Below, in pieces: positions 4,801-50,169 of a stretch of DNA of 64,000 nt. The notes beneath the pieces are model-generated. The model was not told the origin of the DNA. It saw nothing but the letters and a program-made list of their open reading frames with translations, and did not search any database. This DNA comes from Macrostomum lignano. Lineage: Eukaryota. Position 1 is the stretch's first letter; every line of letters starts with the position of its first letter. The DNA lies in assembly GCA_002269645.1 (NCBI GenBank), contig NIVC01002177.1, positions 1 to 64,000 of the forward strand. Direction: 5' to 3'. A program made the position numbers and the translations under genes.

Positions 4801-5785
4801 ATTGTAGTGCGACAGGACTGCGTCTGATGTCTGGGCAAGGAGTGGCCTCTGGCTGGCAATAGCGAGGGAGAATGCAGAGTCATGTAGCTATTCAACTGAA
4901 CTGAACCTTTGAACTGAAGACTTTTAGTGCCATTTTCAATAAGTACAGCCAGTACATGATGATTCAGGCAATAGAGTTAAAAGCATAATGATAAATCGAT
5001 AATTGATTGCCAGATTAATTTTCATAGACCCAATAGTATCTAGTAGAGTGGCTTAACCCAAAGGCCTAGAACAAGTGATGAGATAGTTCTTAGCTGTTTT
5101 TAAAATGTTTTCCTAAAATTCTATCTAATTATTACTATTAAACAAATAATAAGTTGCTAGTTTTTAGTAAGCCTAGGCCTATATAAGGCTTACTTTTTTA
5201 ACATTTATAGTTATAATTACAACAAAAAACTTCTAATAGCATTTACAAATTTGCAATAGCATTTTTAAATTTATTTTATTATTATTTAAGTATCTGTAAT
5301 TATAAATTTATGAACATTAATTTTCTATCCCAAAACCAGTGGCTAATAAATAACAGCTTTGATCCAACTCGTCATAACTTTTACTCTTTGCTTACTAGCC
5401 CTCACAAAGCTAAGCCCAAGCTACAGCTTTGCAACAAATTGTATTAACTAAGAAAAATTGACTGCTAGTTTTAAGATCCCTTAATTAACTAATTTTAAAG
5501 TAAATTTGTTTAAATACAATATATTTAATCTTGACTTACATTATATTAATTATTATACTTTCACTATGCTTTTACTTAATGTATTAAAAATAATGGCATT
5601 CCTTTGGTTTACGATCATTTTTCCACCCACATTTCAGTTCACGATCCCCATGTAATTTTTCATATAAATGATCATAGCTTGCTTGAAATAAACAAAAATT
5701 GTTAAACTGAGCTTATTCGTTACATTAGAAAAAACTGAACGGAATAGCCGACAAATGGTTTCTTTAATGGCATTGCAATGACGAG

Positions 5786-6339
5786 GATCCTATATATCCA
5801 CTTTGGTTTACGATCATTTAAATGGAAGCAATACATGTAAATGATCGTGAACCGAAGCTAGCGTATGTGTGTAAGGGGGTTTTGGTGTTTTACAAGCTCT
5901 ATCTAAAATCAATCACTATCTCAATACATGGCTAGCTTTGGTTCACGATCATTTACATGTATTTCTTCAATTTAAATGATTGTGAACTGAAGCTGAGGGG
6001 GGTGTCGAAGACATATGTAGTCATATATTTATTTGTTGGCTTGTTGGCGATTGAAATGTTATCTTGAGTTAACGTGCGCTCCCAAGTAACTTGATGCTTT
6101 ATTATTCTCTGCACACTGCCACCCCCCCTCAGCTTTGGTTTATGATCATTTAGATGTAAGCAATACATGTAAATGATCGTGAACTGAAGCTAGCCATGTA
6201 TTGAGATAGTGATCGATTTCAGATAGAGCTTGTAAAACACTAAAACCCCTTTACACACATACGCTAGCTTCGGTTCACAATCATTTACATGTATCTCTTC
6301 CATTTAAATGATCGCAAACCAAAGTGGATATATAGGATC
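5786..6339. repeat. Foldback / long inverted repeat: about 218-bp arms and 115-bp spacer, each arm built from internal palindromes
   Basis: 5786-6004 is the near-perfect reverse complement of 6120-6339 (GATCCTATATATCCACTTTGGTTT... / ...AAACCAAAGTGGATATATAGGATC; GCTGAGGGGGGTG / CACCCCCCCTCAGC). Confidence 0.9.
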
Positions 6340-6859
6340 ATCTTTGAATTCTTGGAACTGTGAAATGGATCACTATAACCCCTTTACCTTCTTTTTTCAT
6401 TTGAACATGCAGCTAGTGTTATGATGGATAAATAAAAAGGATTGGAGTGCTTGTCTACTGATTTTTTTGCATTTTGATGAAATAGACAACAATTTTGTAT
6501 CTTCCCTATCTCTCCAATGGGGATCGTCACTAATTTCAATGATTGTAAAACGAAGGAATGCCAAAATAATTAAATCTATCAAAAAATCTCTACTATTAAA
6601 TACTGATATCAATGTAACTGACAAAATTTGAAATTATATTTGACATATCTTTAAGATTGAGAAACATTATTTTAGGGCCAAAATATTAAAAAAACCTAGT
6701 TTAATTGTGCTAGAAAGTAGAAATTTTTTTAAGGTTATTTTTAGGTTTGTTTAAAGATAATAAAATAATAATTTGAACTATTATAATCAAAATAGCTAAT
6801 AAAACTGGTAAGATTTCTTATTCTAGAAGAAAATTTACTACAATTCTAGCTTATTTAGT

Positions 6860-7052
6860 TGTAAGACCATGGGTTGAATTGCAGTGACGAACAAAACGTG
6901 AGGAGACTTCTCTGGCTAACGCCAATATATTTAATGCCAAAGTTGGGGTGGGTGTAACCACCCTAAGCACGCACACGCTGCAGCGCTAAACCCCAACCCC
7001 CAAAACCAGACGTGCACATCTAAGTGCACGCGCACCAACAAGCCAGACTACA
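6860..7052 (-). repeat. 3' LTR
   Basis: TGTAAGACC...CAGACTACA, matches 11606-11798 at 189/193 by eye. Confidence 0.96.
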
Positions 7053-7065
7053 CTACTTTCCCCCT
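7053..7065 (-). promoter_or_regulatory. Polypurine tract (AGGGGGAAAGTAG)
   Basis: Purine run immediately 5' of the 3' LTR on the element strand. Confidence 0.85.
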
Positions 7066-7088
7066 AGAAGCAAAAGACAGTTCCAGAG

Positions 7089-10000
7089 TCAAGCAAAGCC
7101 CGCCATGTATAAGTCAGGTGGCCGCCGCTCTCTCGCCGACCGCCGGGGAACCGTGACCGGCTCGGCCGGTGCCGCCGGCTGCTCCTCGGGTGCATCGTCT
7201 GCCTGCAGCTCGGGCCAGAAGGTCACCGCGTCGCCGTCAGGATCGGCCGCCTGCCCGGGCGGCTCAGCGACGGTGCCGTCGTTGTCGGAGTCGGCGGCCG
7301 GCGGCTGGTGGTCTGCTGCGGCCGGAAGCTCCAGTGACGCCCGCCGCTGCACGAAGCGCTTGAGGCGGTCGTGGTGCACCACCAGCCGGCGCCTGCGGCC
7401 GGTCTCGTCCTGGATGCGGTAATTGACCTCGCCCAGGCGCCTCAGGACTCGGTACGGCCCCTTCCACTTGGCGCTCAGGCACCGCGTCTGGCCGCGCTTG
7501 ATGACGGAGTTGCGCAGCATCACGAGCTGGCCCTCTTCGAACGGCACGAACCGAGAGTCCTGGTTGGCCAGCCGGTTGCGCTCGACCTGGGCGCTCCGCA
7601 GTCGGCCGTGCACTGTGTCGAAAGCGCTCTGCAGGTTCTCCTGAGTCCGCCGCAGGAAGCCGTGATGTCCACCGTCGGCTGCCGGCCGGTCGCCGCTTAT
7701 CAGCCAGCTTTCGAGAGCCAGCCTCGGTGGCCAGCCGTGGAGGACCTGGTACGGACTGAGGCCGGTGGTGCTGTGCACGGAGGTGTTGTAGGCCCAGGTC
7801 ACATATGGCAGCTTGCTGTCCCAATCCTGCTGGTTCTCGGCCACCGTCGTCGCCAGCATATCGCCGAGCGTCCGGTTGCCTCGCTCGACGATTCCGTTGC
7901 CGCTCGGATGAAACGGCGACGTGCGCGTCTTTTCAACGCCCAGCTGCTCGCAGAGCCGGCCGAACACCTCGCTCTCGAATTGCCGTCCCTGGTCACTGTG
8001 CAGCACCTGAGGAGCGCCGTGACGCAGAACCACCGACTTGAGCAGCGCCTCCGCCACCGTCACCGCGTCGATCGCCGCCAGGGCTGCCGTCTCCATCCAC
8101 TTGGAAAAGGCGTCGCACATGCTCAGGATGTACGCCTTGCCATCAGTCGTACGCGGAAGCGGCCCTTTGATGTCAATCTGCACCAGCTGCCACGGAGCCG
8201 TCGGCTGGCACGTCGACTGTAGCGGCGCCTTCTGCGGCTTGGTTGGACTCTTCTTGGCCAGGCAGACCGCGCAGCTGGCCACCCAGTTCTCGACGTCCCG
8301 TCGCAGACCAGGCCACCAGCAGCGCTCAGACAATCTCGCTCCGGTCCTGTCGACGCCGAGGTGTCCGCTCTGGTCGCACGAGTGCGCCTGCTGCAGAAAA
8401 TGCGGCCGCAGGTGACCGGGAATGACTGGCCGGCCACCCACCAGCAGGACACCCGCCGAGCTCACCGAGGCCTCGTCCAGCAGCTCGCGAACCTGCGCCG
8501 CCCATGAATCGGACAGGCTGTCAATCCCGTCGGTCAGCGCCTGGAACACCTTGCTCAGCAGCGGGTCTTGCAGTTGCTCCTCGTGCAGGCGGCTGTCGTC
8601 CCACCGAGGCTGCAGGCGCGTGCCGGCCACCCGGCTCAGCGCATCCGGCACGACGTTGTCCCTGCCAGGCCGGTACAGCAGCTCGAACGAAAACTGCTGC
8701 AGCGTAGAAAGCCATCGCGCCAGCCGACCTTCGGGGTCCTTCGTTGTCAGCAGACCTTGCAGTGGCCGGTAGTCCGAGTAGACTCTGAAGCTCGGGACAC
8801 TCAGCAGGTACGTCCTGAAGTGCTTCAGACTCCAGACCAGCGCCAGCAGCTCGCGGTCGGTCGCCGAGTAGTTGCGCTCGGCCTTGTTGAGGGTGCGAGA
8901 GGCGAACGCCACAGGCAGCTCGGCGTCACCGTGCAGCTGGCTGAGCACCGCGCCGACGGCGAACTGACTGCTGTCGCAGCTGAGCACGAACTGCTTGGTA
9001 AAATCCGGCAGCCTCAGCACCGGAGCCGTCGTCAGTCGGTCCTTCAACTCGTGGAACGCTCGCTCGCAGTCGCTGCTCCACGCGAAGTCCCTCGATTTCA
9101 CGCTGACGTCGTGCAGGACCCTCGCCGTCTGGCTGAAGCCTGGGATGAACCGACGGTAGAACCCCAGCATTCCAAGAAACCGCTTCACCTCCTCGGTCGT
9201 CGTTGGGCTGGGCATGCTGCGAATGGCCTCGACCTTGCCGGGATCCGGTGCGATGCCCTGCTCGCTGATCAGGTGTCCCAGGTACAGCACCCGGCGATGG
9301 CCGAACGCGCTCTTGGCCTTATGCAGCTTGAGTCCCGCGTCTCGCAACCGCTTAAAAACTTCCGCCAGCCTCTCTAAGTGCTCGTCGAACGTCCTGCTGA
9401 AGACAATGATGTCGTCGATATAAGTCAGCACGGACTCCCAGGACAGGCCGGACATCACCAGTTCCATGAGCCGCTGGAACGTCGCCGGGGCATTGCACAT
9501 CCCGAAGCCCATCTTGCAGAACTGCATCAGGCCGCGCGTCGAATAGAAAGCCGTCTTGTACCGGTCCTCCTCCGCCACCTCCACCTGGTGGTAGCCCTGC
9601 CGGCAGTCGATGGTGGAGAACCAGGAGCATCCGACAAGCGCATCCATGGCCTGCTGCAGGTGCGGCAGCGGGTACGCATCCTTGACCGTGCAGGCGTTGA
9701 GCTGCCGCCAGTCCGTGCACAGTCTGATGTCGCCGTTCTTCTTGCGGACCACCAGCAGGTTGCTGGCCCATGGCGATGTCGACGGCTCGATGATGCCGCT
9801 TTCCAGCATCTGGCCGATCTTCTTGTCCACCTGGTCTCGCACAGACAGCGGCAGCCGGCGCTGGACCTGCCGGTGTGGCCGCGCTCCCGGCTCCAGCTCG
9901 ATCTGGTGCTGCAGCAACGCCGTCGTGCCCAGGTCGTACTCGTGCCTGGCGAACAGGTCCTCGTTGCTCTCCAGCAGCTGTCGCAGCCTCGCAGCATCCG

Positions 10001-11585
10001 GTTCGGGCAGCTCCGCGTTCATGTTCCAACCGATGGGGTTCTCCTGGGCCGCCTCCTGGCGACCGTCCCCGTCTGTCATCGCGCCTTCGAACGTGCCGAC
10101 CGCCTTGTTGGCGTACAGCAGCACGGGCTCCTCTTCCAGGTTGCACATTTTCACCGGGATGCGGCAGTCGTCCGAGACCGCCAGCACGCGGGCCGGCAGG
10201 ACGGCAGTGGACTTCACGAAGTCCTCAGACGGCTCAAAGACTCCCTGCTCGCCGCTGGAATCCACCTTGAGCCACACCAGCTTCTCGCTGCGGGCGGGCA
10301 ACTCCGTAGTTGCCGCCACACGCGCCACCAGGACACTCGGCACCAGGCGACAGTCTGCTCGAGCCGGCTCGCTGCTGAAAGGCACGGCTGTGCTGTCGAA
10401 CCTGACGACGCCTTCTTTAATGTCAATGGTCATCGCCTGCGACACCTCGCCGATGAAGTCCATGCCGATGATCAGGTTGGGCTGGATGCCGTCCACGACT
10501 GTGAAGCGATGGCGCACGCGGATGGTCTGGCCGATCGAAACATCCGCTGCTGACAGGCCAAGGCAGCGCAGCCGGGATCCGTCGACGGCCGTCGGCAGCG
10601 CACCGATGTCGGTGGAGTCGATCTTGCACTGCAGTCTGTCGAACAGCGACTTGTCCATCAACGAAACTTGCGCGCCGGTGTCGAGCAGAGCAGGCGCTGA
10701 CACGCTGCCAAAGTGCACCTTCACGAAGACTGAAGGCGCTGATCTGAGGGCCCCTTTTGAGCGGGTCGGTGCTGGCCCAGGCTGCCGACCCTCAGAAGTT
10801 TCCCTGCGGCTGACCAGTTGGTGTCGGGCACACCGCGGCGGAGTGACCCTTGCCTGAGCACCGGCTGCAGCGGCTGCCGATCGCCTTTGGGCACCGCCTA
10901 GCAATGTGACCCGGCTCGCCGCAGCTGAAGCACTTAATGGTCCCTTCTGACGCCTGTCTCTTCCGAGTGGTCCCGTTCGCACGCTGGCTGTCAGCTGCTG
11001 CATCTGCTGCTCCAGCTGGCTCAGCCGTCTGTCTTCTACCGACACCGCGGCTGATGAGGCTGTAGTTGCGTGGCTCACCAGCTCAAGCTGCGCAGCTCTG
11101 TCGACGATAGCGGTCAGCGAACACGAGTCCGCGTCCTGGTCCTTCAACAGTGCATCTCTCACGGCAGATGGCAGGAGGCGCATCAGGCGAAACTTCACGT
11201 CCTTTTCCCGAGCCGCCACGGAGTCGTCCAGGCGGGCCCGAAGGTGGAGAAGCTTCAGGCTGTAGGCGAGCTCCCTCAGCGACTCGTTGGGCTGTCGCTT
11301 TCGCTCTACAAAATCCTCCATTGCTCTGTAGCAGCTCAGACTGTTGCCGAAGCACTCGATCAGCTTCTCCTTCAGCCTTTCATAGCTGGCTGACACGTCT
11401 GCCGGCTGCTCCCAAACGAAGATTTGCGCTTCTCCTGTCACCAGCAGTCTCAGCTTCTTTGCCTTCTTCTTGTCGTCCCATTCACAGTCGTCGGCGAAGT
11501 CTTCAAACGTGCTTAGCCACATTCTTACATTGGAGTCGCTGCTGAACTTTGGAGGCAATAAACTGGCTTGCTCTGATTTGGCCAT
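7089..11585 (-). CDS. Gag-Pol polyprotein (1498 aa from the first ATG after the LTR)
   Basis: Gag capsid (PPKFSSDSNVRMWLSTFE; RQPNESLRELAYSL), aspartic protease LLDTGA, RT LTYIDDII, RNase H CDSSQFAVGAVL / NYSATDRELLAL, integrase HHCC plus D-D-E (QIDIKGP, SDQGRQF, GIVERGN) and GPY motif (WKGPYRV). The track ORF starts 81 nt earlier, inside the LTR. Confidence 0.95.
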   Translation of the reverse strand: MAKSEQASLLPPKFSSDSNVRMWLSTFEDFADDCEWDDKKKAKKLRLLVTGEAQIFVWEQPADVSASYERLKEKLIECFGNSLSCYRAMEDFVERKRQPNESLRELAYSLKLLHLRARLDDSVAAREKDVKFRLMRLLPSAVRDALLKDQDADSCSLTAIVDRAAQLELVSHATTASSAAVSVEDRRLSQLEQQMQQLTASVRTGPLGRDRRQKGPLSASAAASRVTLLGGAQRRSAAAAAGAQARVTPPRCARHQLVSRRETSEGRQPGPAPTRSKGALRSAPSVFVKVHFGSVSAPALLDTGAQVSLMDKSLFDRLQCKIDSTDIGALPTAVDGSRLRCLGLSAADVSIGQTIRVRHRFTVVDGIQPNLIIGMDFIGEVSQAMTIDIKEGVVRFDSTAVPFSSEPARADCRLVPSVLVARVAATTELPARSEKLVWLKVDSSGEQGVFEPSEDFVKSTAVLPARVLAVSDDCRIPVKMCNLEEEPVLLYANKAVGTFEGAMTDGDGRQEAAQENPIGWNMNAELPEPDAARLRQLLESNEDLFARHEYDLGTTALLQHQIELEPGARPHRQVQRRLPLSVRDQVDKKIGQMLESGIIEPSTSPWASNLLVVRKKNGDIRLCTDWRQLNACTVKDAYPLPHLQQAMDALVGCSWFSTIDCRQGYHQVEVAEEDRYKTAFYSTRGLMQFCKMGFGMCNAPATFQRLMELVMSGLSWESVLTYIDDIIVFSRTFDEHLERLAEVFKRLRDAGLKLHKAKSAFGHRRVLYLGHLISEQGIAPDPGKVEAIRSMPSPTTTEEVKRFLGMLGFYRRFIPGFSQTARVLHDVSVKSRDFAWSSDCERAFHELKDRLTTAPVLRLPDFTKQFVLSCDSSQFAVGAVLSQLHGDAELPVAFASRTLNKAERNYSATDRELLALVWSLKHFRTYLLSVPSFRVYSDYRPLQGLLTTKDPEGRLARWLSTLQQFSFELLYRPGRDNVVPDALSRVAGTRLQPRWDDSRLHEEQLQDPLLSKVFQALTDGIDSLSDSWAAQVRELLDEASVSSAGVLLVGGRPVIPGHLRPHFLQQAHSCDQSGHLGVDRTGARLSERCWWPGLRRDVENWVASCAVCLAKKSPTKPQKAPLQSTCQPTAPWQLVQIDIKGPLPRTTDGKAYILSMCDAFSKWMETAALAAIDAVTVAEALLKSVVLRHGAPQVLHSDQGRQFESEVFGRLCEQLGVEKTRTSPFHPSGNGIVERGNRTLGDMLATTVAENQQDWDSKLPYVTWAYNTSVHSTTGLSPYQVLHGWPPRLALESWLISGDRPAADGGHHGFLRRTQENLQSAFDTVHGRLRSAQVERNRLANQDSRFVPFEEGQLVMLRNSVIKRGQTRCLSAKWKGPYRVLRRLGEVNYRIQDETGRRRRLVVHHDRLKRFVQRRASLELPAAADHQPPAADSDNDGTVAEPPGQAADPDGDAVTFWPELQADDAPEEQPAAPAEPVTVPRRSARERRPPDLYMAGFA
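10748..10804 (-). promoter_or_regulatory. -1 programmed ribosomal frameshift signal (G GGA AAC, 6-nt spacer, stem/pseudoknot)
   Basis: Element strand reads CAG GGA AAC TTC TGA GGGTCGG cagcct GGGCC agca CCGACCC gctcaaaagg GGCCC. Slippery heptamer 10804-10798, 7-bp stem 10791-10785 / 10769-10763, possible second stem 10778-10774 / 10752-10748. Confidence 0.7.
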
Positions 11586-11591
11586 ATTGAG

Positions 11592-11604
11592 ACCGCTGCC
11601 ACCA
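11592..11604 (-). promoter_or_regulatory. Primer-binding site, tRNA-Leu type (TGGTGGCAGCGGT)
   Basis: Starts 1 nt inside the 5' LTR boundary and is complementary to ...ACCGCTGCCACCA, the 3' end of eukaryotic tRNA-Leu as I recall it. Confidence 0.8.
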
Positions 11605-11605
11605 G

Positions 11606-11798
11606 TGTAAGACCGTGGGTTGAATTGCAGTGACGAACAAAACGTGAGAAGACTTCTCTGGCTCACGCCAATATATTTAATGCCAAAGTTGGGGTGGGTG
11701 TAACCACCCTAAGCACGCACACGCTGCAGCGCTAAACCCCAACCCCCAAAACCAGACGTGCACATCTAAGTGCACACGCACCAACAAGCCAGACTACA
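11606..11798 (-). repeat. 5' LTR
   Basis: See 3' LTR. Confidence 0.96.
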
Positions 11799-13387
11799 TA
11801 GTCATAATGCTTTAAAACTTGTTAAATTAGTAGCTAATCATATAGTTAAAACTTTTTTTGAGAATAAAAAACTATCTTTTTAAAAATGATATGTCAAAGG
11901 ACTTGGAAATTAATATTAGCCTATATTAGTTAGTCTATATAGGCCTATGCTATAGTTTAGAAGGTGACAATGCTAGGATTTCCCAGCATATAACAATGGT
12001 CTTACTATTTTTCAATGTATATCAAGATATATCCTGGCATACATAACAGAGTAGATACATTATGTCAAATTACATTTTTTTATATTGGTGCACAAACCCA
12101 ATATACAAATAAAGTCTCATTATTTTTTTAGCATTAAAGCTAGCGTACACTAGTATATAATCCAAACTATGGGGCCTATGGTATTGTTTGGCTAAAAATC
12201 TAAGTAGCTAAAATGGCTATAAAAAAGAAAAAGTCAAAAGAATCTTTCAAATAAGATAAAATATATTGCCAAAGCCCAACAAAGGGTTTGCCAAATAAAA
12301 GAGAATAAAGGAGATAATTAAAAAGGGTATAAGCCTAGGCACCTTGAATTTCAAAATTACAATAAAAATTATTTAATATAATTATTACCTATTTTGCCCT
12401 ATCTACTTTTATATCTATTATCTAGCTAGAATAGAAGTATATAACAAAATAATAAAAATTGCTAAATTGTAAATATAAAAAAGTAAAAATATAATATTAG
12501 TAGGCCTACTACTACTAGTACTAGTACTAGTAGTGTAAATTAAAATTCTAATATCTGCTTCAGTGTTTAATAGGCCTAGCCCATATCCATAAATTATTTA
12601 AAAAAATAATATGTAGGCCTTATTATGAGGACATTCATGATTCATTGGCCTAGCTAGATCTTAACCTAGGCCTAATTAAAACAAATATAGCTATTTAATC
12701 TTTTAAATTTACATTTAGAATAAAAAACAACATTTTCAACTATTTTATTTATATCTCAAGACAAAGAAAACAAATTTTATACAAAAAATAGACAAAATTT
12801 AGTTTTAATTTGACATAAAAAATATTTTGACTTAATTTGACATGAAAAAGAAAGTATCATAAAATATCCTCTTGAATTAGTTAGACCTTAGCAGTGTAGT
12901 GGTTGTTCACAAATAATGCATAATTGAACAGTTGAATGGTTAATTTAAAACTAGGCTAATGAATGCTTAAGCTTAACTGAGGTTAGACTTAGACAGTGTT
13001 AAAATAGCATTACAGCCTACGGGCTATGGCCTACTACACTAGCCCCCCAGGCAATAACAAGGCATGAAAAGCAAATATTTACAACCAGTCACAGCATTGC
13101 ATAAGCGCAATGCCAAACATTTTAAATTTGGATAGAGTTAAGCCAGGCTAAGGTTCCAGAGCCGAAAATTGTGTAAAGCTACCGCGAAAATGCATATGCT
13201 TCGTTTAAAACGACTCGGACTCAAACGAGCCTTTAATAAGACTTCTAGCGACTCTTTGTTCCTTACTTCTTACTAAAATTACGCTGACAAGTGATCTAGT
13301 GCCTTAGGGAATATTTTTTCAAGAAACTATTTTATTCAGGGACCAGACCCTGACCCTGTGCCATATGTTTAAGAAGCCGTAATTTTA

Positions 13388-40822: not shown

Positions 40823-43321
40823 TCATGGCGGTGACAAAACGTTGGGCAGAAATCTTCGCAATACGTCCTCTCTAAAATCGGTGGAGAAAAAGTGTTCAAA
40901 GTGTTTTTTTATAAATTATTTATAATGCTAGTACCATTGATGACTTAATGACTTTAATGACTGGGACCTGCTAGAGTGAGCGGACTGGGACCTGACAGAG
41001 CGAGCGGACTGGGACCTGTTAGAGTGAGCGGACTGGGACCTGACAGAGCAAGCGGACTGGGACCTGACAGTGTGAGCGGACTGGGACCTGTTAGAGTGAG
41101 TGGGCTGGGACCTGACAGAGTGAGCGGACTGGGACCTGACAGAGTGAGCGGACTGGGACCTGACAGAGTGAGTGGGCTGGGACCTGACAGAGTGAGTGGG
41201 CTGGGACCTGACAGAGTGAGTGGGCTGGGACCTGACAGAGTGAGTGGGCTGGGACCTGACAGAGTGAGTGGGCTGGGACCTGACAGAGTGAGCGGGCTGG
41301 GACCTGACAGAGTGAGTGGGCTGGGACCTGACAGAGTGAGTGGACTGGGACCTGACAGAGTGAGCGGACTGGGACCTGTTAGGCGATTTAATTAACAAAG
41401 CGAATGAGCAAACTCACTGAAGCAGCACAGGCAGCTGTCCTAGAGGCAGTCGCCAGCGGACCACTGCCAGTGCGCAGAGAGTCTGCAGACTGGGCAGGGC
41501 CTCCAGAACGAACATATCGGAGAGGTCTTTTAATCCCATAATGGAATCGTCAGGTTCCTCTTCCAGCTGTTCAAGAGGCTCAACATCGTCTGGCGGTTGC
41601 GGCCCAGACTCCTGACGCTCGACATCATCGGCCGGATCGGCCTCGCTATCGGAGTCGTCAACCGAGGCTCGCAGGGCCGGCAGCCTGGCCAGGAGCGGGG
41701 CGTACAGTCGCTGAAACTCGGCCGCCGGAAGCGCCGGCTGGAAGCTGTACCGAACGAAACGGCAGGTGCCGCCGAACAGGATCACCCGACTGTTGGACAC
41801 TGGCACGGCTACTAGCCGCCTTCTTGGGCACGGGCCGCGATAGAATGCGGAGCAGGGCTCAGCCCGAGTCACCGAGCCGCTGCACGGATCCAAGCACCAC
41901 AGATCGTTGAGATGCCCGTCCTCATGTCTGATTCGCAGGTCGTTAAAACCGAACCCAAAGTAGATTCGTTCGCCTAAGCGGAACATTGTACCAGACCGTC
42001 TGCCCTGAACATTGTCTAGTCTAGCTCGGAGACTCCACGATTGAGAGTCGGCGTCGAAATAATAAATGCTGGAATCGTAGCAGGACTCGCCTGAGAACAC
42101 GTGACCGGCTGCGTCACTGCGGCCGCCCCACAGAAAGAAGCCGCGCCTCCAGGCTACGCAGCAGCTGAAGTCGCGTGGCGACGGGGCCTCCGGTATTCCG
42201 CTCTGCGGGCATGAGGGTATGAGAATATGAGGGTATGAGAGCATGAGGACATGAGGGTATGAGAATATGAGGGTATGAGGGTATGAGGGCATGAGGGCAT
42301 GAGGGTATGAGAATATGAGGGCATGAGGGTATGAGAATATGAGAATATGAGGGTATGAGGGTATGAGAATATGAGGGCATGAGGGTATGAGAATATGAGA
42401 ATATGAGGGTATGAGGGCATGAGAATATGAGGGTATGAGGGCATGAGGGTATGAGGGCATGAGGGCATGAGAATATGAGGGTATGAGGGCATGAGGGCAT
42501 GGGCATGAAGGTATGAGAATATGAGGGCGAGGGTATGAGGATATGAGAGTATGAGGGAGAGTATGAGAGTATGAGAATATGAGGGTATGAGGGACGAGGG
42601 CATGATGGCATGAGGATATGAAGGCACGAGGGCATGAGGGTATGAAAATATGAGGGCATGAGGACATGAACCCCACCTTTAGATAACCAAAAAAGGCAAC
42701 ACTCACTAGCACGGCTCGAATCCTAGTCCACTGCAGATTAATCAAATCACAACAATAAACCTGGTTTTCGTATTCCTCCGCGGCAGTGAAGCCGCCAAAT
42801 ATGAACATCCGATTGTCAACCACGCAGGCGGAGTGGCCGTCCCGACTAGGCGGCACCTGGCCGGAGCCGCTGTGAATAGTCCAAGCCAGCGATATGGGGT
42901 CGAACTGGCACACCTGCGGCGGCGCCACCAGCCTGTCGTTGCGGCCGCCAAACATGTATGCGCAGCCATCGAATTGTACAACAGTGTGACCATAGCGCAG
43001 CAGCGGCTTGTCCGGCTGGTCAACCTCGGGTTGATCGGCAGCGTAGCAACGCGTCGAATGAGTGACATCTGTCCAGCGCAGGCTGCGCACATTCAGGCAC
43101 TGTACATCAATTCGACGCAATTGGCGAAGATAGTGCGCCCGATTGCCGGAGAAGCCGCCAAATGAATATACGAATGAGTTGATGAGGACGGCAGCGTGGT
43201 TCACTCGCTCCAGGCAGCCCTGCAGAGCGGCTGTCCAGTAGAGACTGTGGCCGGATTCTTTGGCGCCGGCCGCCGCCAATTTCCCCGACGGCGTTGCCAG
43301 TTCTTTCTGTTGGTCAAGAGT
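40823..43321 (-). CDS. KLHDC3: Kelch domain-containing protein 3 homolog (kelch propeller plus C-terminal BC/SOCS-like box); start exon not found
   Basis: Exons 43321-42707, 42202-41418 and probable last exon 40871-40823. Motifs YWTAALQG..RVNHAA..VYSFGG, RYGHTVV..YMFGGRND, RDGHSACV..MFIFGGF, RDFSCC, GRRSG, GPCPRRR..ILFGGT, DLSDMFVLEALPSLQTLC follow KLHDC3 as I recall it. The long track ORF 41414-43378 reads through a repeat-filled intron. Confidence 0.88.
40958..41380. repeat. 24-bp minisatellite (CTGGGACCTGACAGAGTGAGTGGG), in the last KLHDC3 intron
   Basis: Tandem periodicity, about 17 copies. Confidence 0.94.
42209..42665. repeat. 8-bp variant microsatellite (ATGAGGGT / ATGAGGGC / ATGAGAAT) filling a KLHDC3 intron
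   Basis: Tandem 8-mers inside intron 42203-42706. Confidence 0.93.
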
Positions 43322-46719: not shown

Positions 46720-48599
46720 GAAAGCCTCACGATGGCCAGGACGAAAGCCGAGTGCGACAGGGCCTACCACGAGCTGCGCAACCTGCTCACCAGGCTTGGC
46801 TTCACCATCAACGAGAAAAAGTCGGTGCCGCCGACGACAAAGCTGCGATTCCTCGGCATTGACATCGACACCGTGCAAGCCAGTCTTTCCTTCCCAGCCG
46901 ACAAAGCCGAAAGCTTCAGCTTCTCCTTGACACCTGCCTCTCGCGGAGGAGCCTGTGCAAGGCGGAATTGCAGAAGCTGCTCGGACACCTCAGCCACCTG
47001 TGCACTGCCGCCCAGCACGGGCGAACTTTCCTGCGGCCGCTGATCGAGCTGGTCAACAGCCTGGCGCATCCGTCCGACAGGGTCGGCGTCACGGAGGAGC
47101 TCCAGCCGCAGCTGAGGTGGTGGATGACCGCGTTGAGCACGCTGCCGCCTAGAGCTGCCTGGCCCTCGCGTCGGCCGGCTGGAGCGATTGAGTCTGACGC
47201 CTGTGACATTGGAGGCGGTGCTGTGCTGCATTTCGTCGACAGAGAACCGGTTTGGCTCTACATCGACTGGCAGTCCGACTGTGATGGCGCGTTCAAGGAG
47301 CTGCACATCAACCTCAAGGAGTGCGCCGCCCCGCTGGTTGCGATTCTGCAGCACCAAGAAGCCTTCAGCGGCTGCTCGGTTGCAGTCTACACTGACAGCA
47401 CCGCCGCCTGCGGCATCATTAACTCGGGCACACTCGAGCACCAAGGTATTGCCGACCTGCAGAAGCGCGTCGCCCTGACCTGCATTCAACGCGACATCAT
47501 CGTCCGCGCGCACCATGTGCCTGGCCGCTTCCAGCTGCTCTCAGACCCGCTGTCCAGAGCGCATGACCCCAGCCAGCTTGCCAACTTTCTGTTTCGCTTC
47601 TATGGCACCTGCTATGTGCCAACCAGCTTACTTGCCTCCGCTTGCTTGAGCTCTGCCGCTGCCTCCCACCTTCTGTTTCAGGTCCGCCTCCTGTGGTCCC
47701 GGTTCCCGGCCTCTCCGCACCGGCACGTCGACTGCTCAGCCAAGGCTTCGCCAGCTCAACTCGCTCCGCCTACGCCAGCCAGTGCGCGTCCTGGATGCGA
47801 TTCTGCGCCGCCCACAAACTTCAACCGCTGTCAGCGCAGCCCGCCGACGTGTGCAACTACCTGGCGGAGCTGGCGAAGAACCGGCTGTTCTCAGTCAGCA
47901 GCCTATCCTGCCACCTCGCCGCCGTGTCCTGGCTCTACAAATCAAACAGCGTGGCTGACCCGACGAGGCAGCCACTGGTTCAGCTGGCCCTGCGCGGCGC
48001 CCGCCGGCTCCTCGGCGCCGCCCCAAGGAGCAAACGAGCGTTGCGGCCGGCCGACCTGCAGCGGCTGCACGGCGTGCTGCGACCTGAAGAGCCCAGGGAC
48101 TGCGCATTCTGGTGCGCCTGCATCGTGGGCTGGTGGGCCATGCTGCGGCGAGCCAACCTGTGCGTATCCGGCCGGTTCGATCCGCAGCGAGACCTCAGCG
48201 CGAGCTGCATCCGGCCGTCAAGGGCGGGCGTCATCCTCGTCATTCCGAGGTCGAAGACCAACCAGTTCGGGGCGCGCCAGCACCGAGTTTTCTTGCCGCA
48301 GCTCCCAGACGGACATCCACTCTGCCCGGTCACCGCGCTCCAGAAGCAGCTGCGCATTAACCGACCGCAGGACGCCCAGCATCACTTGTTCAGTACCCGA
48401 ACCAGACGGTCCACCGCACCGCTCACCGCGCGCACCTTCGCGAGGCGCCTGTCCGCGGCACTTCGACAGGCCGGGTTCGCCGAGCCAGCCAGGTTCTCTG
48501 GGCACTCGTTGCGTCGAGGTGGCCCTACATCCGCGGCGGAGGCCGGCATCCCCATCGATTCAATCATGCGAGTCGGTGACTGGGCAAGCAGCGCTGTAG
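46720..48599 (+). pseudogene. RT/RNase H ORF of the YR retroelement (truncated, one frameshift near 46915)
   Basis: LTRLGFTINEKKSVPPTTKLRFLGIDIDT (RT thumb) shifts frame into QLLLDTCLSRRSLCKAELQKLLGHLSH...LRWW...ESDACDIGGG...HINLKEC...VYTDS...HVPGRFQLLSDPLSR (DIRS-type RNase H). Confidence 0.85.
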
Positions 48600-48670
48600 A
48601 GCGGTACCTACCGCCTTCGGTTGAGCGCAGTGCGCCGCTGCGCCTGGCTTCGCTCCTCCCCTCTACGTGA
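47642..48670 (+). CDS. Tyrosine recombinase of the DIRS/Ngaro element (open 342-codon frame)
   Basis: N-terminal SAM-like region (STRSAY..WMRFC) and catalytic residues R (MLRRAN), K (RSKTNQ), H-x-x-R (GHSLRRGG), W (GDW), Y (ERYL). The frame starts at TTG, so the true start is uncertain. Confidence 0.9.
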   Translation: MLELCRCLPPSVSGPPPVVPVPGLSAPARRLLSQGFASSTRSAYASQCASWMRFCAAHKLQPLSAQPADVCNYLAELAKNRLFSVSSLSCHLAAVSWLYKSNSVADPTRQPLVQLALRGARRLLGAAPRSKRALRPADLQRLHGVLRPEEPRDCAFWCACIVGWWAMLRRANLCVSGRFDPQRDLSASCIRPSRAGVILVIPRSKTNQFGARQHRVFLPQLPDGHPLCPVTALQKQLRINRPQDAQHHLFSTRTRRSTAPLTARTFARRLSAALRQAGFAEPARFSGHSLRRGGPTSAAEAGIPIDSIMRVGDWASSAVERYLPPSVERSAPLRLASLLPST

Positions 48671-48694
48671 CCTCCTCCCTGGTTTGGGATTTTT

Positions 48695-49174
48695 GGACTC
48701 GTTTCGTCCGCTGCCTTTGTCGCCACGCCTGTGCCTTCCCTCTTGCTGCTTTTGGCCCTGTTGGCTAAGGTTGCGATTTCAGGGGCCGGTTTTAACCGGC
48801 TCTGTAATCATGTTTAGCCGACGGGGCCGCCCCCTCCGCCCGTCTGTGCGTGCGGCCCGCGCGTGTGCATCCCTGCCGCAAGGTGGGGTGCTGGGTGCCG
48901 GCCGGCAGGCGGGGGTGTTGGGTTGGGGGTGGGCGGCGTCGGCCCCCTTTTATTTGTGCGTTCACGCTCTCTCGTGCGCGCTGCGAGAGCGCTTTGGCTC
49001 GTAAAATTTTTTTTATTAATTTTCTTGTAGTGCTTTTATTCCGTTGCTTCGTGACTTCCCTTTTAATCGCCTCAAATCCTAAAATATATTCGCTATCGCA
49101 GGACTCGTTTCGTCCGCTGCCTTTGTCGCCACGCCTGTGCCTTCCCTCTTGCTGCTTTTGGCCCTGTTGGCTAA
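48695..49174 (+). repeat. Split direct repeat: 74-bp identical copies at 48695-48768 and 49101-49174
   Basis: GGACTCGTTTCGTCC...CCCTGTTGGCTAA occurs twice with no mismatch seen. Confidence 0.93.
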
Positions 49175-50169
49175 TAGTGCGTTACACTCGTTAAATATGC
49201 AGTTCTGAGTAATCTAAAAAAGAAGATATTGACTCCATTCGGGGCCACTTCTTTCTGCATCATCCAAAATGTTGGGTATATTTTTATGGTGAATTCCTTT
49301 CCGTTCGCTTTAGCTTCTGAGACTTATCAACCGCGCAGTGAAGTTGATTGCTGTGACATTTTTTGTAATATCCCACTATATGCCCTGCCTTGTGCGTCAG
49401 TCAGTATAGCGCAAGCCAACACCAACAAGAAGCATGGCCAGCTGACCGCGTGCAGAGGGCTTGGCATCTGGCATTTCCCCTCGGATTTAAATGCAGCAGT
49501 AGCTATCCTTTATAGATTCAGGGATTCGAAATTGAAATACCCCCATACTAGAAAGGAATTTTTTATAAAGCACTTCTAAAGATTTCGAATCCATCGTCAC
49601 ACCATCGAATTTTGTGCGCTCTGCGGGAAGCCGATCGACGATTCGAAAATGGCCCGGATGTACATCCTGCGATGCAGGTTAGGGGGGGGGTAAAAACGGT
49701 AATGCAGAGGTGTCGTGTTCAATACGGTTCGCTCGGGCCACACGCACCGCAATTTTAGCTTACACAGCTATACCTGCAGGCAGCCCTACAAACCTTTCAC
49801 TGCATGACGAGATGCGCACATGGTACGCATGGTACGTGCGGTGCGGCCAGATGGCAAGAAAGAAAGAAAGCAAGAAATGAAGAGCGAAAGTACGGGGCTG
49901 TCGCTTTTTTCTTACATTCGGGTTAATTTCGCGCTAGAAATGGAATAGAGGGAAGAGAGTAAAACAGGACCGCCCTGCCCAAATAGGCTAAAAAGCGCGT
50001 CAACGTACATCCAACGGGGCAGCTGCAGAGCGGACTGAACTTTCACTTATAGAAGTCTGGGAGTCACCTTGCTGTCACTTGGTTCTGCTGCAACAGATTC
50101 GGATTGAAAGTTTTTGCAATCTAATAATAAATAGTTGTTCCATCGCACGGCCTCGTCAGATTCAAACGC

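What the first reader, a model, noticed from the sequence alone, without database searches (positions are those of the whole stretch)
10748..10950. Hidden double zinc knuckle and -1 frameshift signal inside an apparently continuous gag-pol ORF
Seen: the long ORF has no nucleocapsid knuckle and reads low-complexity sequence here (KGPLSASAAASRVTLLGG...). One base over, 10932-10792 encodes KCFSCGEPGHIARRCPKAIGSRCSRCSGKGHSAAVCPTPTGQPQGNF*: two perfect CX2CX4HX4C knuckles ending at the slippery heptamer G GGA AAC, followed after 6 nt by a 7-bp GC stem and a possible pseudoknot. Known: this is the standard Gag end and -1 PRF layout. But the pol frame here is +1, not -1, relative to the knuckle frame, and equals the upstream gag frame. 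Inference: two 1-nt deletions, both placeable in G runs (10942-4 and 10751-4), converted a frameshifting element into a knuckle-less fused ORF, either as real compensatory mutations or as read errors. The more exotic alternative is an inverted scheme in which Gag-Pol is the default product and knuckle-bearing Gag needs recoding or splicing.
Basis: partly seen in the sequence, partly recalled or inferred. Interest (0 to 1): 0.75.

Follow-up and report, generated by a model that had tools for sequence, protein, structure and literature searches.

The report
Ordinary retrotransposon, two bases missing
This is an ordinary jumping gene whose sister copies keep the usual zinc-knuckle end of Gag and a likely -1 ribosomal frameshift into pol; this one copy is a single base short at two nearby places, by sequencing error or private mutation, which only makes it look like one unbroken gene.

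Summary
In detail: two perfect CCHC knuckles, G GGA AAC and a 7-bp stem lie one base off a 1498-aa open frame of a Ty3/gypsy-type LTR retrotransposon. The exotic reading fails. In 4 of 4 public runs laid (4 studies), the contig spanning the region is one base longer than the window at each of two places, about 10938-10940 and 10775-10778, and has no other gap. That puts the knuckles in the Gag frame and pol at -1. The five closest stand-alone Gag relatives carry both knuckles in frame, and two Pol relatives read through the heptamer in the -1 frame. No relative shows a hidden knuckle pair (0 of 131). Whether the losses are assembly errors or private mutations is open, about even: only contigs were available, and they drop rare variants. 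Frameshifting itself is inferred, not measured. My three answered look-ups in this scan's earlier notes found nothing similar. Ordinary; low interest.

The parts
11799..11802 (.). 4-bp target-site duplication, 5' side
   Evidence: same 4 bases flank both LTRs
11606..11798 (-). 5' LTR, 193 bp, TG...CA
   Evidence: direct repeat at offset 4746, 4 mismatches to the 3' LTR
11592..11604 (-). primer binding site, likely tRNA-Leu
   Evidence: sequence 1 nt after the LTR; its first 12 bases match a primer at the start of the LTR-internal region of a tapeworm element whose PBS was assigned to tRNA-Leu (PMC4558846, passages)
10941..11585 (-). gag, capsid part, in the long frame
   Evidence: 36-44% identity to five stand-alone Gag proteins
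10938..10940 (.). first place where this copy is one base shorter than the public contigs
   Evidence: 4 of 4 runs; one run differs from the other three in the letter it carries here (table 4)
10891..10932 (-). zinc knuckle 1 (CX2CX4HX4C), off-frame in this copy
10828..10869 (-). zinc knuckle 2 (CX2CX4HX4C), off-frame in this copy
10798..10804 (-). slippery heptamer G GGA AAC, predicted -1 frameshift site
   Evidence: in phase with the knuckle frame; G-N at the end of 4 of 5 closest Gag proteins and G-K-L-L-R-x-G in two Pol relatives
10792..10794 (-). stop codon of the knuckle (Gag) frame
10748..10791 (-). predicted stimulator: 7-bp stem 10791-10785/10769-10763, possible second stem 10778-10774/10752-10748
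   Evidence: helix enumeration; not unusual by folding energy
10775..10778 (.). second place where this copy is one base shorter than the public contigs; lies in the 5' arm of the possible second stem
   Evidence: 4 of 4 runs (table 4)
10449..10721 (-). aspartyl protease
   Evidence: PF13975, E 1.7e-07
9273..9749 (-). reverse transcriptase
   Evidence: PF00078, E 1.4e-28
8691..9080 (-). RNase H
   Evidence: PF17919, PF17917
7356..8423 (-). integrase (zinc-binding, core and C-terminal domains)
   Evidence: PF17921, PF00665, PF22938
7056..7065 (-). polypurine tract
   Evidence: 10 purines ending 3 nt before the 3' LTR
6860..7052 (-). 3' LTR, 193 bp
6856..6859 (.). 4-bp target-site duplication, 3' side

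Best explanation
The window holds one copy of an ordinary Ty3/gypsy-type LTR retrotransposon that is one base shorter than its sister copies at two places 163 nt apart; in the sisters Gag ends in two zinc knuckles and pol lies in the -1 frame, likely reached by ribosomal frameshifting at G GGA AAC. Shown: the two length differences, and the frame relations that follow from them by counting. The first loss moves this copy's reading out of the knuckle frame; the second, past the Gag stop, moves it into pol, so about 54 codons of off-frame, low-complexity sequence join gag to pol. Inferred: in sisters most ribosomes stop after about 264 codons (Gag) and a minority slip at the heptamer, helped by the stem or pseudoknot, to make Gag-Pol. 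Open: whether the losses are errors of the window's assembly (about 0.5) or private mutations of this insertion (about 0.45).
For:: the single contig spanning the region in each of X1, X2, X3, X11 (4 studies) has exactly 2 gaps against the window, at these two places; the other long contigs listed on the element have none. P0006, P0007, P0009, P0010, P0013 (5 of 5 closest stand-alone Gags with a C-terminal part) carry two in-frame knuckles; each matches the window's long frame down to 10941-10980 and then the knuckle frame; 4 of 5 end G-N-x. P0163 and P0165 (63% and 62% in RT/RNase H) read GKLLRxG ahead of the protease, matching the window's -1 frame at the heptamer (0 of 500 shuffles reach the score) and neither other frame; 13 of 53 Pol relatives with enough upstream sequence have G-K-L there; codon-position GC favours the knuckle frame. 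[quoted passage not shown]
Against: No raw reads were laid; contigs keep the majority path, so a minority of copies like the window's cannot be excluded (tool caveat). Only 4 of the 18 runs holding half or more of the words were laid. The stimulator fold is not unusual by energy (z -0.49). No relative's DNA could be fetched (empty), so heptamer conservation is read from protein ends only; P0010 ends without G-N and P0166 starts too late to tell. After the second place, the match of the Pol relatives' linkers to the long frame is weak (shuffle fractions 0.074-0.44). 19 of 120 RT hits, all at 53% identity or less, have knuckle and protease fused in frame, so single-frame gag-pol exists further out, but with the knuckle kept.
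Confidence: 0.93

Rival explanations
1. Sub-case A of the best explanation: both losses are errors of the window's assembly; the real insertion has the standard layout.
For:: in the unique flank, 3 of 3 covering runs are also one base longer than the window in the run of 7 at 11853-11859, so the three differences on which all covering runs agree are all losses in the window. Sister contigs differ among themselves at the first place (X11 against X1-X3), a spot where a consensus caller fed mixed copies could drop a base (inference). Two losses within 165 nt of 4.5 kb has a chance of 0.07 if placed at random.
Against: The two places are runs of only 2 and 3, while the 20 runs of 4 or more in the open frame show no gap among the 12 rows listed (6 rows not shown). 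The flank contig overlaps the LTR by 30 bases, one short of the tool's bridging rule, and the flank difference may be an allele.
Confidence: 0.5
2. Sub-case B: the losses are real private mutations of this one insertion, which would now encode a knuckle-less Gag-Pol fusion and no normal Gag; a decaying copy, noticed because the second loss happens to close the frame.
For: The copy differs from all four runs at 6 listed coding positions, 3 of them at first codon positions, and its LTRs differ at 4 of 193, so it carries private changes; against X1 it has 12 substitutions and 2 gaps over four contigs of about 4.5 kb, an unremarkable ratio for neutral change (recalled, no call).
Against: The same-direction loss in the flank. 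Private substitutions could reflect line or haplotype differences and say nothing direct about the gaps.
Confidence: 0.43
3. Inverted scheme: Gag-Pol is the default product of the family, and knuckle-bearing Gag is made by a shift into the knuckle frame or by splicing.
For: The window alone is compatible: the knuckle frame is -1 to the long frame and open from 11082. RNA-like runs hold the element.
Against: 4 of 4 runs, three of them RNA-like, have the standard layout. No X XXY YYZ heptamer is in phase with the long frame anywhere in it (0 of 9 heptamers). None of 10 joints listed has ends that read GT..AG on the - strand (table 5). 0 of 131 protease-bearing proteins among 270 fetched show the paired signature that off-frame knuckles force on the read frame; the window itself scores positive.
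Confidence: 0.02
4. Tandem slippage: a -1 shift at G GGA AAC and a second -1 shift at A AAG GGG (10757-10751, followed by a 9-bp hairpin) lead from the knuckle frame to pol in the window as it stands.
For: The second heptamer is in phase with the -1 frame; hairpin 10739-10715, z -1.94.
Against: It does not explain how gag enters the knuckle frame; sister contigs need only one shift; heptamers with G in the second triplet are poor shift sites in eukaryotes (recalled, no call).
Confidence: 0.01

Closest known systems
Ty3/gypsy (Ty3/Mdg4) LTR retrotransposons of the flatworm Macrostomum lignano (P0152, 98% identity over 906 aa of Pol; P0019, P0163, P0165 at 62-72% in RT/RNase H)
   Same: Domain order protease-RT-RNase H-integrase, about 4.9 kb, short LTRs, Pol recorded apart from Gag, Gag with CCHC knuckles. 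PMC12801592 (passages and supplement 1) reports 129 Ty3/Mdg4 families in that species, 78 of them in the Mag clade.
   Different: This copy, as assembled, has gag and pol in one frame without knuckles. Its family name and clade were not found: the paper's supplement 5 gave no match to the motifs searched, and that file is read with long cells cut.
-1 frameshifting at G GGA AAC with a downstream pseudoknot (PEG10, simian retrovirus 1 gag-pro)
   Same: Same heptamer at the end of a knuckle-bearing Gag, 6-nt spacer, GC-rich stem, possible second stem. The heptamer's efficiency is stated in PMC5009743 (passages); PEG10 and SRV-1 papers came up in listings for the heptamer (listings only; that both use exactly this heptamer is otherwise recalled).
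   Different: Frameshifting here is untested; the pseudoknot is only a pairing possibility, and this copy differs from its sisters inside the second stem.
Yeast Ty3 (PDB 7q5b, 4ol8)
   Same: Best solved-structure match for the Pol part, E 2.9e-117.
   Different: Ty3 uses a mechanistically distinct shift (+1; direction recalled). Here sister copies have pol at -1.

Membership tests
Ty3/gypsy LTR retrotransposon | two LTRs with TG...CA ends and a short target-site duplication | tested here: met
   193-bp LTRs, 4 mismatches, 4-bp duplication
Ty3/gypsy LTR retrotransposon | primer binding site and polypurine tract | tested here: met
   11604-11592 and 7065-7056; tRNA-Leu assignment by likeness to PMC4558846
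Ty3/gypsy LTR retrotransposon | pol order protease, RT, RNase H, integrase; no env | tested here: met
   Pfam; the open frame ends 36 nt before the 3' LTR, leaving no room for env; best PDB match is Ty3
Mag clade | placement in an RT tree with named Mag references | not tested
   no named reference RT could be fetched; two knuckles, short LTRs and small size fit Mag as recalled, and Mag is the largest clade in the nearest named species, but that is a lead only
-1 programmed frameshift element | X XXY YYZ heptamer in phase with the upstream frame | tested here: met
   G GGA AAC in phase with the knuckle frame
-1 programmed frameshift element | downstream frame is -1 and open from the heptamer into pol | tested here: met
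   met for the sister contigs by frame counting and for relatives P0163, P0165; not met in the window copy, whose -1 frame stops at about 10721
-1 programmed frameshift element | stimulatory structure 5-9 nt downstream | tested here: inconclusive
   7-bp stem at 6 nt and a possible second stem, but folding energy is ordinary; no covariation test possible without relatives' DNA
-1 programmed frameshift element | measured frameshifting | not testable with these tools
   needs a reporter, ribosome profiling or proteomics
inverted scheme (Gag-Pol default) | layout shared by sister copies or relatives | tested here: not met
   0 of 4 runs; 0 of 131 proteins
inverted scheme (Gag-Pol default) | slippery site or splice joint leading into the knuckle frame | tested here: not met
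   0 of 9 heptamers in phase with the long frame; 0 of 10 joints with intron ends on the - strand (contigs only)

The most novel reading that the evidence does not exclude
The short form is real and shared by a minority sub-family that contigs hide: two compensating one-base losses turned a frameshifting element into a single-frame producer of knuckle-less Gag-Pol that spreads, or supplies Pol, by leaning on Gag from sister copies - a caught step in the switch between two-frame and one-frame gag-pol layouts.
Probability: 0.04. Interest if true: 0.5.

Novelty: new member of a known kind. Interest (0 to 1): 0.08.

Why it matters
As it stands it matters little: a known kind of element with a textbook frameshift layout, seen through a damaged or mis-assembled copy. 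The useful lesson is practical: a long stop-free gag-pol frame is no proof of an intact element, since two nearby one-base losses can hide the nucleocapsid and the frameshift signal; a dip in third-position GC and an off-frame knuckle give it away. A side result is a likely conserved G GGA AAC frameshift site in this flatworm group of elements, which I did not find in print. Only if the short form were real and propagating would it show how elements switch between two-frame and one-frame layouts.

Tried and rejected
No whole genome is held, so sister copies in the same assembly could not be counted. A word-index protein search with residues 1-400 found nothing among proteins of 823-2622 aa. 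Scans for relatives' DNA in metagenome contigs and viral contigs found no confirmed locus, so no DNA alignment or covariation test of the frameshift signal was possible. Folding of the stretch at the knuckle start gave no sign of a stimulator for entry into the knuckle frame (z 0.45 and 1.75). Tandem -1 slippage and splicing were considered and rejected (see rivals). Predicted proteins P0001-P0004 join Gag, one knuckle and protease in one chain, but they are long gene models with unrelated flanking sequence that skip from inside or just after the knuckles to the protease; I read them as predicted-intron joins and did not count them as fused elements. Contig depth (flank 113, gag region 360 in X1) was not used as a copy number, as the tool warns. 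A family name was sought in the supplements of PMC12801592 without a match; cut cells there may hide it. PMC3587641 (passages) gave no clade-defining features. One search was seen as a listing only and not used. ARAGORN found no tRNA gene in the window. Earlier scan notes: nothing by sequence or place; one unrelated note by words.

Full report
What is there. The stretch lies in a 4.94-kb LTR retrotransposon on the - strand: LTRs of 193 bp at 11798-11606 and 7052-6860 with TG...CA ends and 4 mismatches, a 4-bp target-site duplication, a primer binding site at 11604-11592 and a polypurine tract at 7065-7056. One frame is open from the ATG at 11585 to 7089 (1498 aa) and holds protease, reverse transcriptase, RNase H and integrase in that order, with no zinc knuckle; the best solved match is yeast Ty3 Gag-Pol. 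The nearest named protein is a Macrostomum lignano Pol at 98% identity, and 18 public runs of one organism, in 7 studies, hold 62-86% of the element's sampled words.

Two CX2CX4HX4C motifs start at 10932 and 10869 in the frame one base 5' of the long frame. They are the only two in six frames of 64 kb, where 0.15 are expected, and score E 5.2e-10 to zf-CCHC. That frame ends QPQGNF-stop at 10792, with G GGA AAC at 10804-10798 in phase, a 7-bp stem after 6 nt and a possible 5-bp second stem. The fold is ordinary by energy (z -0.49; 79 of 892 windows fold as well). Over these codons the long frame loses its third-position GC bias (0.54) while its second position rises to 0.72, as expected if the knuckle frame is the coding one.

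The decisive test. I laid 4 of the 24 listed runs, one each from studies P1, P2, P3 and P5 (one DNA-like, three RNA-like by the tool's guess; all contigs) on 6800-11900. In each run a single contig of 1.7-2.5 kb spans the region and has exactly two gaps against the window: it is one base longer at about 10938-10940 and at 10775-10778. The other long contigs listed on the element have no gap (12 gap rows shown, 6 not shown; the rest of those shown belong to diverged relatives near 9650-9730, one LTR variant in X11 and the flank). Counting frames: one more base at the first place carries gag into the knuckle frame, giving a Gag of about 264 aa; one more base at the second makes the -1 frame entered at the heptamer run on into protease. 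This is the standard layout. X11 carries a different letter from X1-X3 at the first place, so sisters vary there.

Relatives agree. A search of 1.84 billion representatives with residues 1-398 gave 373 hits at E 0.001 or better, 150 listed. The five closest stand-alone Gags that reach the C-terminal part (P0006, P0007, P0009, P0010, P0013; 215-370 aa, 36-44% identity) all carry two in-frame knuckles; 4 of 5 end G-N-x like the window's knuckle frame; P0014 and P0015 are short N-terminal fragments and were left out. By tblastn each follows the long frame down to 10941-10980 and then the knuckle frame. From the other side, the closest full Pol proteins (P0153, P0155, P0019, P0162, P0163, P0165; 62-87% in RT/RNase H) are recorded without Gag. 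P0163 and P0165 have enough sequence ahead of the protease to test: both read GKLLRxG, which matches the window's -1 frame at the heptamer (0 of 500 shuffles) and not the other two frames; beyond the second place their match to the long frame is weak (shuffle fractions 0.44 and 0.074); P0166 starts too late to tell. 13 of 53 RT hits with at least 35 residues before the protease motif have G-K-L there. An off-frame knuckle forces a pattern on the frame that is read; the window shows it twice, and 0 of 131 protease-bearing proteins among the 270 fetched do. Against a uniform picture, 19 of 120 RT hits, all at 53% identity or less, have knuckle and protease in one frame, so fused gag-pol exists further out, with the knuckle kept. 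Relatives' DNA could not be fetched.

Mechanism. Shown: the sequence features, the two length differences and the frame relations. Inferred: in sister copies most ribosomes end Gag after the knuckles, and some slip back one base at G GGA AAC, helped by the stem or pseudoknot, to make Gag-Pol. PMC5009743 (passages) lists this heptamer among the most shift-prone and reports pol at -1 in 28 of 51 animal retroelements surveyed. In the window's copy, if real, translation would leave the Gag frame just before the knuckles, read about 54 off-frame codons and enter protease: a knuckle-less fusion with no normal Gag.

The inverted scheme fails every test I could run: not in 4 of 4 runs, no heptamer in phase with the long frame (0 of 9), no joint with intron ends on the - strand (0 of 10), no relative with the signature. 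The limit is that contigs keep majority paths, so a minority sub-family is not excluded.

Error or mutation? Undecided. For error: in the unique flank the window is also one base shorter than 3 of 3 covering runs in the run of 7 at 11853-11859, though the listed flank contig overlaps the LTR by only 30 bases and the difference may be an allele. For mutation: the copy differs from all four runs at 6 listed coding positions, 3 silent and 3 at first codon positions (85 rows of that table not shown), its LTRs differ at 4 of 193, and the two places are short runs while 20 runs of 4 or more show no listed gap. Two losses falling within 165 nt has a chance of 0.07, and a scan of many windows will pick such cases.

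Comparison and novelty. It works like, and by LTRs, primer site and domain order is, a Ty3/gypsy LTR retrotransposon. Mag-clade membership is plausible (recalled features; 78 of 129 Ty3/Mdg4 families in the nearest named species, PMC12801592, passages and supplement 1) but untested; motif searches of that paper's supplements found no family match, and cut cells there may bear on this. The primer site resembles a tRNA-Leu site in a tapeworm element (PMC4558846, passages). I found no paper on frameshifting in these flatworm elements (as listings; the word 'frameshift' occurs 0 times in PMC12801592). The scan's earlier notes held nothing similar. Verdict: an ordinary element seen through a damaged or mis-assembled copy; interest 0.08.

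Noticed in passing
window 46730-49175, + strand: A 5'-truncated tyrosine-recombinase retrotransposon (DIRS/Ngaro-like by domain content): end of RT, RNase H-like domain, overlapping recombinase frame 47567-48667 (PF00589, E 1.7e-07), and a 74-bp direct repeat at 48695 and 49101. The RT-to-RNase H region changes frame near 46900-46930.
   Followed up: partly
window 11853-11859: Run of 7 in the unique flank is one base shorter than in 3 of 3 covering runs; a hint of residual single-base losses in the assembly, or an allele.
   Followed up: partly
window 11615 to 6870 (run X2): One contig runs from the 5' LTR straight back into the 3' LTR region ('goes back 4746'); most simply the two LTRs collapsed in the assembly graph, though a one-LTR circle would look the same.
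   Followed up: no
window 42700-43250, - strand: Kelch-repeat coding sequence (PF24681, E 3.1e-44) inside an open frame that runs on into an 8-bp tandem repeat at about 42200-42530; likely a host gene exon.
   Followed up: no
window 18000-61000: At least ten minisatellite arrays (periods 8, 17, 17, 20, 24, 26, 28, 32, 33, 35, 41 nt), most purine-skewed on the + strand; they create many of the long stop-free frames.
   Followed up: no
window 5783-6342: 220-bp inverted arms, 91% complementary, with nested 62-bp inverted repeats; looks like a miniature or foldback DNA transposon 500 bp from the 3' LTR.
   Followed up: no
window 10739-10715, - strand: A 9-bp hairpin (z -1.94) just ahead of the protease start, 11 nt after a second heptamer-like run; no role assigned.
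   Followed up: partly
proteins P0001-P0005, P0011: Public gene models that splice retrotransposon gag and pol pieces to each other and to unrelated sequence; such models can pass for fused gag-pol or domesticated genes.
   Followed up: no
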